IMG/VR virus record: IMGVR_UViG_3300005253_000193
Location: 41,964-105,963 of that record
Length of the DNA: 64,000 nucleotides
Source of the DNA: a virus
Strand: one strand, 5' to 3'
Every line of letters starts with the position of its first letter. Within the stretch, counting starts at the first letter, position 1. Made by a program: the position numbers and the translations under genes. Positions 42,646 to 46,277 of the stretch are shown here, in pieces. The notes beneath the pieces are model-generated. The model searched no databases. It was not told the DNA's origin and saw only the letters and a program-made list of their open reading frames with translations.

Positions 42646-42921
42646 TTAACTTGCCCCTCCTGATGAACAAGTATTAGAACTTCGGATCTCGTTGGGGGCC
42701 GCCGGATTTTTTGGGCTTAGGGGGGCATTGGCCGATTTGACAAGTGTGAGTCTCTTCTCGTCGAGCCACTCCTCCTCCAGAACCTTGCCCTCCTTCGTGA
42801 GCTTCTTCGACTGGACCGCGAAACGTGTGCATCCATTGTGTCAGTCCGTTCTGGCAACGACGACCCCGGTGAACCCGGTGACTGTATCCTTCACCATATC
42901 GTTGAGGCGAATGTCGGTCAT
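42646..42921 (-). pseudogene. Small phage protein gene with an in-frame TGA (codon 27) and an apparent frameshift at a C6 run
   Basis: GAAGGAG RBS; MTDIRLNDMVKDTVTGFTGVVVARTD*HNGCTRFAVQ...EWLDEKRL; a GGP-containing tail appears in another frame. Confidence 0.6.
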
Positions 42922-42974: not shown

Positions 42975-43976
42975 TCACATCTTGAAGGACGGAGCCTGCA
43001 TCCACACCCCATCCTTGAACCAAGTATGGGTGGTGACTAGGCTGATGTAATGAACCCGCGCCCCGTCGACGACGATCTGTCCAACGAACTGATCGTTCTT
43101 GATCGTGATGAGCACAACGTCGGGGAAGGTGGTAGATGCTTCCTCCCGCTTCTCCGTGAATTCATCGTCCAGGAGGCCGATGATGATGTTTTTCGTGTCC
43201 TCCCGTTCCGCTTTGGAGACGGATTCAAGCGCATCCCCCAAGCCCCCCAGATTGTCGACTTTGGGGAGAGGACGACGCTGCGGCTCCTTGCCGATGCCCA
43301 GCTTGATTTGACGGACTGCTTCACTTCCATAGCACTCCCTGATGAGAGCTTCCCAAATCTCACGGAAGTACCGTCGGGAGGGGGAACGCTCAATGCCAAC
43401 CAGCCGCCCACCGATGATGATAAGAGCCCCAACCTGTTTGGGCACACGCTCGAACTCGGCCACAAACAAGTCCAGTTCCTTTTGGAACTTGTCCATGAAG
43501 TCGATCAGGTCTCCAGGGCCGCTTAGTCCAGCCTCGGTCTTGAAGTTCCTGATGTTACCCCAGATGGCGGAGAAGTCGGGGTTGGCATTGGTGAGAGCTG
43601 CTTCCCTGAGGGACCAAGGGAGCAAGGAAAACTTGTGCTCACCACGCGGGATAGTTCCGCCTTGGGTTTCCTGGACACACAACGCATTGTCGAAGACTCG
43701 CCTGCCCTTGACGAAGCCACCCTTGCGGAGAGCATGATCTTGAGCTCTCTCGCGGACGAGGTAGGCGGTTTGTGGCGGGACCAGGATCTCCTCGTCCGGG
43801 GACCTTGCGTCGATGTTCAGGTTTCCATAGGTGCTGTTATGAACCGTGGCCCCCTCAGGGCTGACAAATCTGTCATCCTCCAGGTCACTCAGCAGGGGAA
43901 TGACCTGCATGATGCCGACGGTCTGCATCCGCCCAGGGGTGCATCCCCTGAGCATTTCGGAAATGTTGCGGGTCAT
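42975..43976 (-). CDS. ARPP/DUF6569-like protein
   Basis: MQVIPL, AQDH, CVQ..QG, IW..I and FE.VP.QVGA.I.IGG..GIE parallel ARPP-type domains (from memory); GAGGAGG RBS. Confidence 0.5.
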   Translation of the reverse strand: MTRNISEMLRGCTPGRMQTVGIMQVIPLLSDLEDDRFVSPEGATVHNSTYGNLNIDARSPDEEILVPPQTAYLVRERAQDHALRKGGFVKGRRVFDNALCVQETQGGTIPRGEHKFSLLPWSLREAALTNANPDFSAIWGNIRNFKTEAGLSGPGDLIDFMDKFQKELDLFVAEFERVPKQVGALIIIGGRLVGIERSPSRRYFREIWEALIRECYGSEAVRQIKLGIGKEPQRRPLPKVDNLGGLGDALESVSKAEREDTKNIIIGLLDDEFTEKREEASTTFPDVVLITIKNDQFVGQIVVDGARVHYISLVTTHTWFKDGVWMQAPSFKM

Positions 43977-43997: not shown

Positions 43998-44165
43998 TTA
44001 ATTCGCATCTGGCGCATCATCGTCGTCGCCGGTCAACCAATTGAGCATGGCGACCAAACCATCTTCGTAACTCTTACCTTCGTAATGAGTTCCTTGGTCC
44101 TGGCCTTCATTTGCCCAATTCGCTACCCTATCGATCTCATCATCAGAGCGTTTGATGACACGCAT
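43998..44165 (-). CDS. 55-aa acidic protein (absent from the ORF track)
   Basis: MRVIKRSDDEIDRVANWANEGQDQGTHYEGKSYEDGLVAMLNWLTGDDDDAPDAN; GGGGAG RBS. Confidence 0.7.
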   Translation of the reverse strand: MRVIKRSDDEIDRVANWANEGQDQGTHYEGKSYEDGLVAMLNWLTGDDDDAPDAN

Positions 44166-44177
44166 TTAACGTCTCCC

Positions 44178-45815
44178 CTATTCAAACCACCCAAGATCAC
44201 CAAGCCGATGCTCCTTGATGGTGCTGGTGAGGATCATGGTGATAGCTTTCTTGATGTCCGTATTGATGAACAACTTCAGGGCGGAACTCACCAAAGCTTC
44301 GGGGCTGACTACGGGTATGGCTGCGCTGACCCCACCAAGGACCCGGATACCCTCGGACTCGGCCCCTGTAACCGGCGAGACTTGGATCACAGGCGTATCT
44401 ATGCCCATGTCCCTAACTCGCTCCAGGGTGTCGCCGAAGCGGCCAGCCGGGGCATTTTCGTAGCCGTCGGTAATGACGAAGACTGCATCGGGTTCGTGCT
44501 CCAGGAGACCAACCAAGGAAAGTGCCAGATTGGTATCACCCTTGGGCTGAATAAGGGCACCCTGACCATTCCCTCCGACGTAGTGGACAGTGGACAGATT
44601 CGACGCTGCACGCAATACATCCTCGACTGCCAGAGCGACGGCAATGGGATGAAGCTTTTGGGTCTTATGTCCATACATGGACGCCGATGCATCGACTATG
44701 ATACCGACGTTCTCATAATGGAAGGGAAGCGTTTTGGCAACGTCCTCAGCCTTCTTGTCTAGGGCTTTCCTGATCTCAGCCGTCATGCCCATCTCGTAGG
44801 CGTAGATGTACAGCTTGACGGCATCATGCTTGAGAGGATCGAAGGCAACCTCGACACCTTCCCGTTTGGCTTGGGCCTGTACGTTGATACGTTGCTTGGA
44901 AGACATCTGGTCCTTAGCCAGCTCAAGGACTTCCCCACTTTTCACTTCCTTGTGGAACTGTCCACGGATTCCCTCCAGGACCTCTGGGGGAAGCCTTTCA
45001 CCCTTGCTCAGATCATTACGCGCCTTGCGTACAGCCGCAATGATTGGAGCATCAGGATTTTCCGTTACATAGGGAACGGAAGATCCCAAGGCGTAGGCGA
45101 TGGCCAAACGAGACTCGATGCCGGGGGAAGGAAAACCAGGAATATATCTGTAAACATTTTCCCTGATCAGTTTGGTCTCATCCGGCTCCCACTCCTGATA
45201 AGGGCGTTGAAGAATGGAGCGAATGACACCGGACAACTTCTGGCCCCACACATGTCGGAGGATTGCCCCGTACTTGCGTCGATACCTGACTGCCCTCATT
45301 TCGAGGGAACCCACCGCCCCGGTATGGAGAAGGTGGCGGAGGATCAGCTTCCTCGTCCGCATGTTGTTGATCCTGGCCTGCCCAGCCATGACAAACGTCC
45401 TGAGCTGGCGCGGGACGGTGATCCCGTCGCACAGATATTCCAGGAGATTCCGCTCCATCTCGGCGTGATGCTTTTTGGTGGTCTGAAGCATCCCTCCGCT
45501 GTGCTTATCCGAAAGCAGGCGAAGGATGCCTTGCTGCCTCGACCTGTCCATGACACCCGGCAGGGCCAAGACCGCACCATATAGGAGGCGGTCGTACAGG
45601 AACATCTTTTTGTGCGCCTCCAACTCGGCGGCTTCCTGTTCCTCCTTGGAGTTGTAGAAGGTCGCTCGGCCCTTGGCGGTGATCACGAAGTCCAGAAAGG
45701 ACTCCAGGTCCTTTGAAAGACTGACGAACTGGCTGTTGGGAAGATGGATGGGAACCATAAGCTGGCTCCTGACGGCGGGCAGAGACGCGGACACTGCGGG
45801 GATGTTCTGGTTCAT
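44178..45815 (-). CDS. Helical N-domain + C-terminal vWA protein (Ro60/TROVE-like architecture)
   Basis: MIDAS residues IIVDASASM, GDT, VITDGYEN; 545 aa; basic helical N-terminal ~360 aa with an early TFY motif. Confidence 0.65.
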   Translation of the reverse strand: MNQNIPAVSASLPAVRSQLMVPIHLPNSQFVSLSKDLESFLDFVITAKGRATFYNSKEEQEAAELEAHKKMFLYDRLLYGAVLALPGVMDRSRQQGILRLLSDKHSGGMLQTTKKHHAEMERNLLEYLCDGITVPRQLRTFVMAGQARINNMRTRKLILRHLLHTGAVGSLEMRAVRYRRKYGAILRHVWGQKLSGVIRSILQRPYQEWEPDETKLIRENVYRYIPGFPSPGIESRLAIAYALGSSVPYVTENPDAPIIAAVRKARNDLSKGERLPPEVLEGIRGQFHKEVKSGEVLELAKDQMSSKQRINVQAQAKREGVEVAFDPLKHDAVKLYIYAYEMGMTAEIRKALDKKAEDVAKTLPFHYENVGIIVDASASMYGHKTQKLHPIAVALAVEDVLRAASNLSTVHYVGGNGQGALIQPKGDTNLALSLVGLLEHEPDAVFVITDGYENAPAGRFGDTLERVRDMGIDTPVIQVSPVTGAESEGIRVLGGVSAAIPVVSPEALVSSALKLFINTDIKKAITMILTSTIKEHRLGDLGWFE

Positions 45816-45841
45816 GGTCAGTTCCCTTTATCCAAACAAGA

Positions 45842-45918
45842 GGCCCGGTAAGGTCGTTCGTCAGTTTTGCGTAGACACTCCTGAAGTGTATGCTGTACTG
45901 ACAGACTAGTTCCGGGCC
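45842..45918 (-). ncRNA. Structured RNA unit 1 (77 nt) of a three-unit array
   Basis: GGCCCGG-AACTA-GTC-T-GTCAGT-ACA-GCAT-ACAC-TTCAGGA-GTGT-CT-ACGC-AAA-ACTGAC-GAAC-GAC-CTTA-CCGGGCC; nested stems. Confidence 0.75.
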
Positions 45919-45941
45919 ACTTGGTCGTTCATTTTATTACA

Positions 45942-46022
45942 GTCCGGTAAGGTTGTTCGTCGTGGTGCGTCATTGATCGACTTCAACGTCGAGGATGCTG
46001 TAACGGCGATCTAGTTCCGGAC
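45942..46022 (-). ncRNA. Structured RNA unit 2 (81 nt)
   Basis: GTCCGG-AACTA-GAT-CGCCGT-TACA-GCATC-C-TCGAC-GTTGAA-GTCGA-TCAAT-GACGC-ACC-ACGACG-AACAAC-CTTA-CCGGAC. Confidence 0.75.
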
Positions 46023-46047
46023 CTTTTTTAACAATTGGTTTAGGCGA

Positions 46048-46169
46048 GCCGGTAAGGATGTACGTTGTATTTGGTGGATGTGATTGGAATCGAACCAATT
46101 ACACACTGATTGAAGTCAGTTGCTCTACCGAATGAGCTACATATCCTGTAACAACGTTCTAGTTCCGGC
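46048..46169 (-). ncRNA. Structured RNA unit 3 (122 nt) containing a full tRNA fold
   Basis: GCCGG-AACTAGA-ACGTTGT-TACA-[tRNA]-AAT-ACAACGT-ACATC-CTTA-CCGGC. Confidence 0.8.
46072..46146 (-). tRNA. tRNA-like cloverleaf, apparent anticodon UCA in an abnormal 6-nt loop, encoded CCA
   Basis: GGATATG TA GCTC ATTCGGTA GAGC A ACTGA CTTCAA TCAGT GTGTA ATTGG TTCGATT CCAAT CACATCC A CCA. Confidence 0.8.
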
Positions 46170-46247
46170 CCTCCCAGCAACAAAGGAGTTGAAAATGGCG
46201 GGAGCCACTTCCATTGGGATGGTCTGCCAAAACCACCACCAAAAATG

Positions 46248-46277
46248 ATACTACTACGCCCCCAAATGCTTTGGCAA
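46248..46277 (-). promoter_or_regulatory. Sigma70-type promoter for the RNA array/vWA operon
   Basis: TTGCCA-N18-TAGTAT with an AT-rich UP-like tract upstream. Confidence 0.55.

What the first reader, a model, noticed from the sequence alone, without database searches (positions are those of the whole stretch)
46048..46169. Complete tRNA caged by paired leader and trailer, with a 6-nt CUUCAA anticodon loop
Seen: canonical D arm, T loop (UUCGAUU), 5-nt variable loop and ACCA end. The leader and trailer pair (7 bp plus terminal helix), burying the CCA, and the anticodon loop is one base short. Known: in YrlA RNAs the Ro-binding stem replaces the anticodon arm, whereas here it extends from the acceptor end, a different topology. 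Inference: either a non-decoding mimic, or a protein-gated precursor releasing an opal-suppressor-like tRNA. The 6-nt loop in unit 2 argues against a simple sequencing deletion.
Basis: partly seen in the sequence, partly recalled or inferred. Interest (0 to 1): 0.75.

Follow-up and report, generated by a model that had tools for sequence, protein, structure and literature searches.

The report
Whole tRNA mounted in phage Y RNA
A marine-sediment phage carries a nearly perfect tRNA (one base short in its anticodon loop) clamped inside the conserved stem of a Y-RNA-like partner of a hidden Ro60-type ring protein, most likely a non-decoding tRNA mimic from an apparently undescribed, widespread branch of the Ro60/Y-RNA machines.

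Summary
Window 46146..46072 is a high-scoring tRNA with a 7-bp acceptor stem, A73 and an encoded CCA. Its anticodon loop has 6 nt (CUUCAA). Leader and trailer form two helices (7 + 7 bp) that enclose the CCA in an internal loop; they do not pair with it.

It is the first of three tandem units sharing one scaffold (G-R-A-C-U ... U-N-CAG ... CCUU), 26 nt upstream of a 545-aa protein. Pfam misses that protein, but its model matches Ro60 structures. An ARPP-1 gene follows in 127 of 140 related loci.

About 70 distinct relatives in phages, Pirellulaceae and Myxococcota carry the same caged tRNA-like unit, and both cage helices covary. D loop, T loop and variable loop are conserved. The anticodon loop is free: U33 is lost in 19%, A34 occurs in 28%, and five loops have 6 nt.

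The same CUUCAA loop recurs in two distant loci with different stems, and a relative about 85% identical from another study keeps six bases. So it is selected, not a sequencing error.

The topology is not YrlA's. It matches D. radiodurans Yrn1, which also has a 6-nt "anticodon" loop. TGA is this phage's commonest stop, so an opal suppressor is unlikely.

Best reading: a non-decoding tRNA-mimic Y RNA. This scan has already met the system on other DNA (at least 31 genomes).

The parts
46046..46171 (-). Unit 1: complete caged tRNA-like Y RNA (P1, internal loop, P2, UACA, tRNA, AAU, P2', internal loop, P1')
   Evidence: Covariance model R1 gives a full-length match of 104.5 bits at 46178..46041. 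Sequence read. Fold z = -3.1.
46072..46146 (-). tRNA body: 7-bp acceptor, D arm, anticodon arm, 5-nt variable loop, T arm, A73, encoded CCA
   Evidence: Rfam RF00005 58 bits, E 6e-10. ARAGORN tRNA-??? (tc).
46110..46115 (-). 6-nt anticodon loop CUUCAA, closed by the 5-bp stem ACUGA/UCAGU (46120..46116 and 46109..46105)
   Evidence: Kept in an independent ~85%-identical contig. The same loop on different stems occurs in L021 and L009 unit b.
46165..46171 (-). P1 5' strand GGGCCGG, pairing with 46052..46046 (CCGGCUC)
   Evidence: Sequence. P1 covaries at all 7 pairs in 38 units, with 87% of cells paired.
46158..46164 (-). Conserved 5' internal-loop motif AACUAGA (family signature G-R-A-C-U/G), the proposed contact for the Ro-like protein
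   Evidence: G[AG]AC[TG] occurs in the first 30 nt of 95 of 104 units. The canonical GNCGAAN0-1G occurs in 2 of 104.
46151..46157 (-). P2 5' strand ACGUUGU, pairing with 46068..46062 (ACAACGU). It is followed by the conserved U-N-CAG (46150..46146), whose G is tRNA position 1.
   Evidence: P2 covaries at all 8 pairs, with 84% of cells paired. U26, C28, A29 and G30 are invariant or nearly so.
46053..46061 (-). Conserved 3' internal-loop strand ACAUCCUUA (family C-C-U-U motif)
   Evidence: Alignment A4.
45936..46030 (-). Unit 2: same scaffold carrying a small payload with a 5-bp hairpin and 6-nt loop (GUUGAA), no tRNA body
   Evidence: R1 full-length match, 35.5 bits. Sequence.
45837..45925 (-). 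Unit 3: same scaffold with a short hairpin payload; counterpart of L009 unit c
   Evidence: R1 full-length match, 40.3 bits. Compared with L009 1390-1472.
46248..46277 (-). Sigma-70-like promoter candidate (TTGCCA-18-TAGTAT) upstream of the RNA array
   Evidence: Consensus scan only, 9 of 12 matches. Weak evidence.
44178..45815 (-). 545-aa divergent Ro60-like protein (helical-repeat ring plus vWA domain with an invariant DxSxS MIDAS motif)
   Evidence: No Pfam, PHROG, NCBIfam or PDB sequence hit. AF2 model pLDDT 90.3, pTM 0.89. The top 12 Foldseek PDB hits are all Ro60: 9nep, 2i91, 1yvp, 2nvo, 9l5y, 9kop, E 5e-8 to 7e-4. ESM Atlas TM 0.74-0.85 to TROVE-named clusters. MIDAS residues D375, S377, S379.
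42975..43976 (-). ARPP-1 family protein, the constant partner gene
   Evidence: Pfam PF20208, E 2.8e-21. A homolog lies directly downstream of the Ro-like gene in 127 of 140 loci.
43998..44165 (-). 55-aa ORF between the two genes, not conserved in the relatives
   Evidence: No tblastn hit in any of the 140 loci.

Best explanation
Unit 1 is a Y-RNA-type partner RNA of the phage's own Ro60-like ring protein. Its effector module is a whole, unpermuted tRNA used as a structural mimic, not as a decoder.

Proposed mechanism:
- The three units are transcribed with or just ahead of the Ro-like and ARPP-1 genes (inferred).
- The terminal scaffold (P1, a conserved asymmetric internal loop G-R-A-C-U / C-C-U-U, P2, then U-N-CAG) is the handle bound by the Ro-like protein (inferred by analogy with Ro60 and Y RNA).
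- The L-shaped tRNA body, held by its acceptor end, is presented to a tRNA-recognising partner. It would act as a tether, as Yrn1 tethers PNPase, or as bait or decoy in a conflict over tRNAs, with ARPP-1 as the coupled enzyme (inferred).
- The anticodon arm is kept as a 5-bp helix but its loop is not read by a ribosome. In this lineage it is a selected 6-nt CUUCAA loop.
- This copy has a 7-bp acceptor stem and a CCA. RNase P may nick it at G1, as it does M. smegmatis YrlA. The 14 bp of P1 and P2 would then hold the two pieces together rather than release a free tRNA (inferred).
For: Shown:
- tRNA at 58 bits with a 6-nt loop.
- All three tandem units share one scaffold and lie 26 nt upstream of the gene on the same strand.
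- The gene product has a Ro60 fold.
- In 38 aligned units from different loci, P1 and P2 covary at all 15 pairs. Overall 92% of cells pair, against 66% in shuffles and 35-45% in slid controls.
- 80 of 122 loci with at least 500 nt of upstream sequence carry a caged tRNA-like unit on the gene's strand.
- Among 67 distinct caged units, the D-loop GG (61), the T-loop UUCRANN (58) and a 5-nt variable loop (64) are kept.
- U33 is present in only 54 of 67 caged units, against 18 of 18 free tRNAs in the same loci. A34 occurs in 17 of 61 against 0 of 16. Five loops have 6 nt.
- 'Ser' and 'Leu' anticodons sit on bodies with 5-nt variable loops. Bacterial tRNA-Ser needs a long variable arm (established knowledge).
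- CUUCAA recurs in L021 and L009b on stems that differ at every pair and survives in an independent relative.
- ARPP-1 is co-located in 127 of 140 loci.

Precedents: the Yrn1 topology with a 6-nt loop, and M. smegmatis YrlA cut by RNase P with both halves still bound to Rsr (PMC4201824). A phage Ro60 binds upstream Y-like RNAs and host PNPase (PMC12135203).
Against: - No expression, processing or binding data exist for this RNA or protein.
- The canonical bacterial Y RNA motif GNCGAAN0-1G is absent, and no Rfam Y RNA family matches. 'Y RNA' therefore rests on context and architecture.
- This copy keeps every feature RNase P and 3' processing would need: a 7-bp acceptor, A73 and CCA. CCA sits at positions 74-76 in 19 of 67 units. 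That is unexpected for a pure mimic and could mean the end is used.
- tRNA-like genes with the same 6-nt CUUCAA loop also occur in phage contigs with no Ro-like gene in the stretch held, so the loop may have a role independent of Ro.
- The effector is unknown.
Confidence: 0.7

Rival explanations
1. Gated pro-tRNA. The cage is a processing block. On a signal, or by action of the Ro-like protein or ARPP-1, RNase P and 3' trimming release a mature tRNA that works in translation, for example reading UGA (anticodon UCA with a shortened loop) or shifting frame.
For: - 7-bp acceptor, A73 and encoded CCA.
- CCA at the canonical place in 19 of 67 family members.
- RNase P cuts M. smegmatis YrlA (PMC4201824).
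- The phrog_16275 gene just downstream (42921..42649) has an in-frame TGA aligned with W or Y of its homologs, and the HMM match spans it at E 7e-15. Its family-like C-terminus lies in the -1 frame.
Against: - The loop has 6 nt by selection, and in general knowledge such loops decode poorly.
- TGA is the commonest stop (74 of 168 genes), and the genome is 91% coding under code 11.
- A genome-wide scan found no second credible in-frame TGA.
- The one gene with a TGA also has a frame break, as a decaying gene would.
- Family anticodon loops lack U33 in 19% and carry A34 in 28%.
- 14 bp of P1 and P2 would keep leader and trailer attached.
- A73 does not fit bacterial Trp identity, which uses G73 (established knowledge).
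Confidence: 0.1
2. Free-standing decoy. The tRNA-like RNA acts on its own as bait or inhibitor for a host tRNA-cleaving or tRNA-modifying defence enzyme. The Ro-like protein only stabilises it or is unrelated.
For: - 'Anticodons' turn over quickly among units and loci while the L-shape elements are conserved.
- Several units with different loops occur per locus.
- 6-nt CUUCAA tRNA-likes occur with no Ro-like gene in the stretch held.
Against: - The scaffold motifs are conserved in tRNA-less units too.
- Linkage to the Ro-like and ARPP-1 genes is near-obligate in 80 of 122 loci and 127 of 140 loci.
- Both points argue that the RNA works as part of an RNP.
Confidence: 0.15
3. Artefact or decay: an ordinary tRNA gene (loop CUUCAAA) that lost one A through an assembly error or recent mutation, lying by chance between inverted repeats.
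For: The missing base falls in a short A run. The source is a metagenome assembly.
Against: - Contigs from two samples are identical, and a diverged relative from another study shows no indel in the arm.
- The identical 6-nt loop sits on different stems in L021 and L009b.
- The flanking helices covary across 38 units.
- Units 2 and 3 share the same scaffold.
Confidence: 0.02

Closest known systems
D. radiodurans Yrn1 (Y RNA bound by Rsr; tethers PNPase in RYPER)
   Same: - Encoded upstream of the Ro60 gene on the same strand, in an array with a second Y RNA and next to tRNA genes.
- The Ro-binding stem is formed by the 5' and 3' ends.
- tRNA-like elements are in natural (D then T) order, with a 5-bp 'anticodon stem' and a 6-nt loop (PMC4201824).
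   Different: - Yrn1 is only weakly tRNA-like: poor D arm, no variable loop, no acceptor stem or CCA.
- Its Ro-binding helix resembles the metazoan GGUCCGA helix.
- Here the body is a full cloverleaf scoring 58 bits, with a 7-bp acceptor and CCA, and the handle motif is G-R-A-C-U / C-C-U-U.
- No sequence homology was shown.
YrlA (Salmonella, M. smegmatis, mycobacteriophages)
   Same: A Y RNA next to Ro60 whose effector module is a close tRNA mimic, with conserved D and T arms and tertiary contacts. M. smegmatis YrlA has a 7-bp acceptor, is cut by RNase P and gains CCA while both halves stay bound to Rsr (PMC4201824; bioRxiv 10.1101/312249).
   Different: - YrlA is circularly permuted (T, acceptor, D).
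- Its acceptor is a closed loop.
- It has no anticodon loop.
- The Ro stem replaces the anticodon arm.
- It carries GNCGAAN0-1G near the 5' end.
None of these holds here.
Thermus phage phiLo Ro60 with Yrl1/Yrl2 (PDB 9KOP, 9L5Y; PMC12135203)
   Same: A phage-encoded Ro60 ring with two Y-like RNAs encoded just upstream. The structure is among the Foldseek hits of the protein here.
   Different: The phiLo protein is recognisable as TROVE by sequence. Its Yrl RNAs were picked by a CGAA motif and, in the passages read, are described as stem-bulge-stem RNAs without any mention of a tRNA body. No ARPP-1 partner is reported.
Classical tRNA mimics with a free acceptor end (tmRNA, plant-virus TLS, MALAT1 mascRNA)
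   Same: tRNA-shaped modules embedded in a larger RNA and recognised by RNase P, the CCA-adding enzyme or synthetases.
   Different: Those expose or release the CCA end. Here the acceptor end is closed off by two covarying helices that also form a protein handle.

Membership tests
Canonical decoding tRNA | Cloverleaf with 7-bp acceptor, D arm, T arm and conserved tertiary nucleotides | tested here: met
   RF00005 58 bits against a 29-bit gathering score. G18G19, U54U55C56, A58 and a 5-nt variable loop read from the sequence.
Canonical decoding tRNA | 7-nt anticodon loop with U33 and purine 37 | tested here: not met
   The loop is CUUCAA, 6 nt. A one-base shift of the stem gives no alternative 5-bp helix.
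Canonical decoding tRNA | Matured to free 5' and 3'-CCA ends and aminoacylated | not testable with these tools
   Needs Northern blotting, RACE and charging assays.
Opal suppressor / tRNA-Trp(UCA) of a TGA-recoded phage | The genome uses TGA as a sense codon | tested here: not met
   TGA ends 74 of 168 genes, and the genome is 91% coding under code 11. Only one credible in-frame TGA was found, in a gene that also has a frame break.
YrlA-type Y RNA | Encoded next to a Ro60 ortholog on the same strand | tested here: met
   The array ends 26 nt upstream of a Ro60-fold protein.
YrlA-type Y RNA | GNCGAAN0-1G motif near the 5' end | tested here: not met
   Absent from the 5' strands of the three units. 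Present in 2 of 104 family units.
YrlA-type Y RNA | Permuted T, acceptor-loop, D order, with the Ro stem in place of the anticodon arm | tested here: not met
   The order here is natural (acceptor, D, anticodon arm, variable loop, T, acceptor), and the handle extends from the acceptor end.
Yrn1-type Y RNA | Terminal 5'/3' stem plus tRNA-like elements in natural order, with a 5-bp anticodon-like stem and 6-nt loop | tested here: met
   compared with the description in PMC4201824.
Yrn1-type Y RNA | Metazoan-like conserved Ro-binding helix, or sequence homology to Yrn1 | not tested
   No Yrn1 sequence was available to compare. No Rfam family other than tRNA matched convincingly.
Y RNA (functional definition) | Bound and stabilised by the Ro60 protein | not testable with these tools
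   Needs co-immunoprecipitation or EMSA.
Ro60/TROVE protein (the neighbouring gene) | Matches the TROVE sequence profile | tested here: not met
   No Pfam hit even at E 10. PF05731 was not found in the genome.
Ro60/TROVE protein (the neighbouring gene) | Helical-repeat ring plus C-terminal vWA domain with a MIDAS motif | tested here: met
   AF2 pLDDT 90.3. The top 12 PDB matches are Ro60 at probability 1.00, though TM is only 0.38-0.47. DxSxS is invariant in 63 sequences.

The most novel reading that the evidence does not exclude
The caged RNA is a switchable pro-tRNA. The Ro-like ring and ARPP-1 control nicking or release of a tRNA whose selected 6-nt CUUCAA loop performs non-standard decoding, either UGA read-through or a frame shift. 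A candidate target is the adjacent phrog_16275 gene, which needs both a TGA read as W/Y and a -1 shift. This would make the locus a phage-encoded, RNP-gated recoding device.
Probability: 0.06. Interest if true: 0.9.

Novelty: new variant of a known kind. Interest (0 to 1): 0.68.

Why it matters
Why bacterial Y RNAs imitate tRNA has been open since 2014. The known mimics are either permuted (YrlA) or only faintly tRNA-like (Yrn1).

This locus belongs to a large clade that sequence profiles do not recognise. In it the Y-type handle holds a natural-order tRNA body, here a complete one with CCA, and is always coupled to an uncharacterised enzyme-like protein (ARPP-1). The clade's features show where selection acts:
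- on the L-shape and the handle,
- often on the CCA,
- not on the anticodon.

The same module sits in cultured Pirellulaceae (for example Stieleria magnilauensis TBK1r and Novipirellula sp. SH528). Binding, processing and knock-out tests are therefore feasible there. If the module acts in tRNA damage or repair conflicts between phages and hosts, it adds a new player to that field.

Tried and rejected
- Rfam at gathering and permissive thresholds found no Y RNA family. Only tRNA matched, plus a reverse-strand tRNA look-alike (Plastid-ycf2, below threshold).
- BLAST of the region against 50,697 phage records gave only three ~55-65-nt matches within the tRNA.
- Pfam, PHROGs, NCBIfam, PADLOC and PDB sequence searches of the 545-aa protein gave nothing.
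- The look-up of sequencing runs listed no RNA holder, so expression could not be assessed.
- Read laying cut its table of substitutions at 46105. I could not see whether the acceptor and anticodon-stem changes of the X4 relative are compensated on the 5' side. Four unlisted substitutions remain in 46106-46180, which is the number needed plus one.
- I compared leader-trailer duplex energy of stand-alone CUUCAA tRNA-likes with ordinary phage tRNAs. The test was uninformative, because neighbouring tRNAs in arrays pair with each other (mean -16 kcal/mol).
- A regex for the scaffold was too strict and was replaced by a covariance model.
- One literature search (ARPP-1/TROVE) returned only unrelated ARPP-16/19 papers, and one call failed on term length. 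The Annual Review on bacterial Ro60 (PMC10870794) is not held.
- A crude comparison of ORF sets under codes 11 and 4 was not informative and was replaced by greedy gene calling.

Full report
**What is there.**

The feature lies on the minus strand. Rfam's tRNA model scores 58 bits (E 6e-10) at 46146..46075, with zero residues at one anticodon-loop position. ARAGORN reports tRNA-??? with a two-base anticodon 'tc' at 46146..46072.

Read from the sequence, the tRNA has:
- acceptor GGAUAUG/CACAUCC, with one A-C mismatch
- a canonical D arm
- anticodon stem ACUGA/UCAGU closing CUUCAA (46115..46110)
- variable loop GUGUA
- T arm with UUCGAUU
- A73 and an encoded CCA

The leader ACGUUGU (46157..46151) pairs with the trailer ACAACGU (46068..46062). 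Further out, GGGCCGG (46171..46165) pairs with CCGGCUC (46052..46046). The CCA lies in the internal loop between the acceptor stem and the inner helix, enclosed but unpaired.

The unit folds better than shuffles (z = -3.1). The comparative structure is within 3 kcal/mol of the MFE.

**Context.**

The tRNA unit is the first of three tandem units (46171..46046, about 46030..45936, and about 45925..45837). All share 5' CCGGAACUAG...U(U/A)ACAG and 3' CCUUACCGG.

Twenty-six bases downstream starts a 545-aa ORF (45815..44178). It has no hit in Pfam, PHROGs, NCBIfam, PADLOC or PDB sequences. Three results identify it structurally:
- ESM Atlas places it next to TROVE-named clusters (TM 0.74-0.85).
- An AlphaFold model built on 63 relatives (pLDDT 90.3, pTM 0.89) has Ro60 structures as its 12 best PDB matches: frog, human, D. 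radiodurans Rsr and Thermus phage phiLo, at E 5e-8 to 7e-4. The global TM is only about 0.4, as can happen between ring conformations.
- The vWA MIDAS motif DxSxS is invariant.

Next come a 55-aa ORF and an ARPP-1 gene (PF20208).

The genome is a 106-kb IMG/VR virus record from marine sediment. Its neighbours are a DnaB-like helicase, a topoisomerase and an SNF2 helicase.

**The family.**

Protein-guided scans gave 4 viral, 80 metagenomic and 54 genomic loci at 33-47% identity. The genomic set includes cultured Pirellulaceae (Stieleria, Novipirellula, Rhodopirellula), Embleya/Yinghuangia and Myxococcota. An ARPP-1 homolog follows the Ro-like gene in 127 of 140 loci.

ARAGORN found many same-strand tRNA-like genes just upstream, many with odd anticodons.

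A MAFFT alignment of 38 such units shows one architecture: P1, then G-R-A-C-U, then P2, then U-N-CAG, then the tRNA-like body, then P2', then C-C-U-U, then P1'.

RNAalifold recovers P1, P2 and the D, anticodon and T stems, and 27 of 29 pairs show double changes. Counted against controls:
- 92% of cells pair, against 66% in shuffles (0 of 500 shuffles reach it) and 35-45% when partners are slid.
- P1 is 87% paired and P2 is 84% paired.
- All 15 cage pairs covary.

A covariance model (R1) finds full-length units in most loci. Window unit 1 scores 104.5 bits. Units 2 and 3 score 35-40 bits as cage-only matches. Free tRNAs match only the body. Of 122 loci with at least 500 nt upstream, 80 have a caged tRNA-like unit.

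**What selection acts on.**

Among 67 distinct caged units:
- D-loop GG is kept in 61, T-loop UUCRANN in 58 and a 5-nt variable loop in 64.
- U33 is present in only 54, against 18 of 18 free tRNAs in the same loci.
- A34 occurs in 17 of 61, against 0 of 16.
- Five loops have 6 nt.
- 'Ser' and 'Leu' anticodons sit on short-variable-loop bodies.
- Acceptor stems range from about 3 to 8 bp.
- CCA is at positions 74-76 in 19 of 67, far above chance.

So the L-shape and the handle are selected, and the anticodon is not. The window's copy is at the most tRNA-like end of the range, alongside L080, L038, L016 and L029.

**The 6-nt loop is real and selected.**

- Contigs from two samples are identical.
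- A 343-nt contig from a different 2023 study covers all three units with 41 substitutions and 14 gap letters. All 14 gap letters are listed, and none lies in 46105-46120.
- That contig also shows a U51-A63 to C-G compensation, and it turns the A5-C68 mismatch into A-U.
- The same CUUCAA loop sits on entirely different stems in L021 (UCUGC/GCAGA) and L009 unit b (UCACU/AGUGA).
One is caged in another scaffold, and the stretches held carry no Ro-like gene.

**Comparison with the literature.**

YrlA is permuted, its acceptor is a closed loop and it has no anticodon loop (PMC4201824; bioRxiv 10.1101/312249).

The same 2014 paper describes D. radiodurans Yrn1 as having the opposite D/T orientation, with a 5-bp 'anticodon stem' and a 6-nt loop. 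That is the topology seen here, in a far more complete form.

M. smegmatis YrlA, with a 7-bp acceptor, is cut by RNase P and gains CCA while both halves stay with Rsr. A phage Ro60 with upstream Y-like RNAs that engages host PNPase is known (PMC12135203).

ARPP is an uncharacterised protein with conserved Cys and Gln, predicted to act on ribose-containing substrates. A pairing with Ro60 is not among its published contexts (PMC9503650).

The canonical GNCGAAN0-1G motif is absent (2 of 104 units), whereas G-R-A-C-U/G is present in 95 of 104.

I found no paper describing this branch. Earlier notes of this scan report the same module in at least 31 genomes, and my results agree with them.

**Suppressor idea.**

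The genome is 91% coding under code 11, and TGA is the commonest stop (74 of 168 genes). The other tRNAs are Lys-UUU, Thr-UGU and Pro-UGG.

A scan for split ORFs joined by TGA found one credible case. This is the phrog_16275 gene at 42921..42649. Its TGA (42843..42841) aligns with W or Y of two homologs, and the HMM match spans it.

Its family-like C-terminus is in the -1 frame. The gene therefore looks decayed, or doubly recoded. I keep this as a low-probability lead.

**Verdict.**

This is a real, conserved, structured RNA. It is a Yrn1-like (not YrlA-like) Y-type RNA whose effector module is a complete tRNA with a selected 6-nt loop. It is partnered with a cryptic Ro60 homolog and ARPP-1.

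Binding, processing and the effector are all inferred, and no expression data were available.

Noticed in passing
window 42649-42921 (minus strand): A small phrog_16275 gene just downstream of ARPP-1 has an in-frame TGA (42843..42841) aligned with Trp/Tyr of its homologs. Its family-like C-terminus (KKSGGPQRDP) lies in the -1 frame. It is either a decaying gene or a doubly recoded one.
   Followed up: partly
L017 4124-4361; L021 4132-4295: Free tRNAs just downstream of the ARPP-1 gene in two relatives have 9-nt anticodon loops (CUCUUGGGA, CUCUUACUA, CUCUGCUAA). ARAGORN reads some of them as 4-base anticodons.
   Followed up: no
L143 2293-2431; L164 1175-1248; L244 8074-8146; L246 3821-3892: Four further phage tRNA-like genes have the same 6-nt CUUCAA loop, and the stretches held carry no Ro-like gene. 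L143 is caged in a different scaffold (R1 64.6 bits). L246 lies upstream of a ribonucleotide reductase gene.
   Followed up: partly
L087-L099 (Pirellulaceae genomes), about 300-450 nt upstream of the Ro-like gene: In cultured and uncultured Pirellulaceae the caged unit has only a 3-bp acceptor. Its anticodon loop UUCUUAA (Lys-like CUU) is conserved across several genera.
   Followed up: partly
genome C1 17000-18600 (minus strand; outside the window): A run of small paralogous genes all end in ...(F/Y)(R/K)xxYNAF followed by TGA.
   Followed up: no
window 45837-45925 and L009 1390-1472: The last, tRNA-less unit of the array is conserved between distant loci (AGUACAGCA...GCAAAACUGAC(C)GAACGACCU). 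It carries a GACGAAC element on its 3' strand that resembles the YrlA CGAA motif.
   Followed up: no
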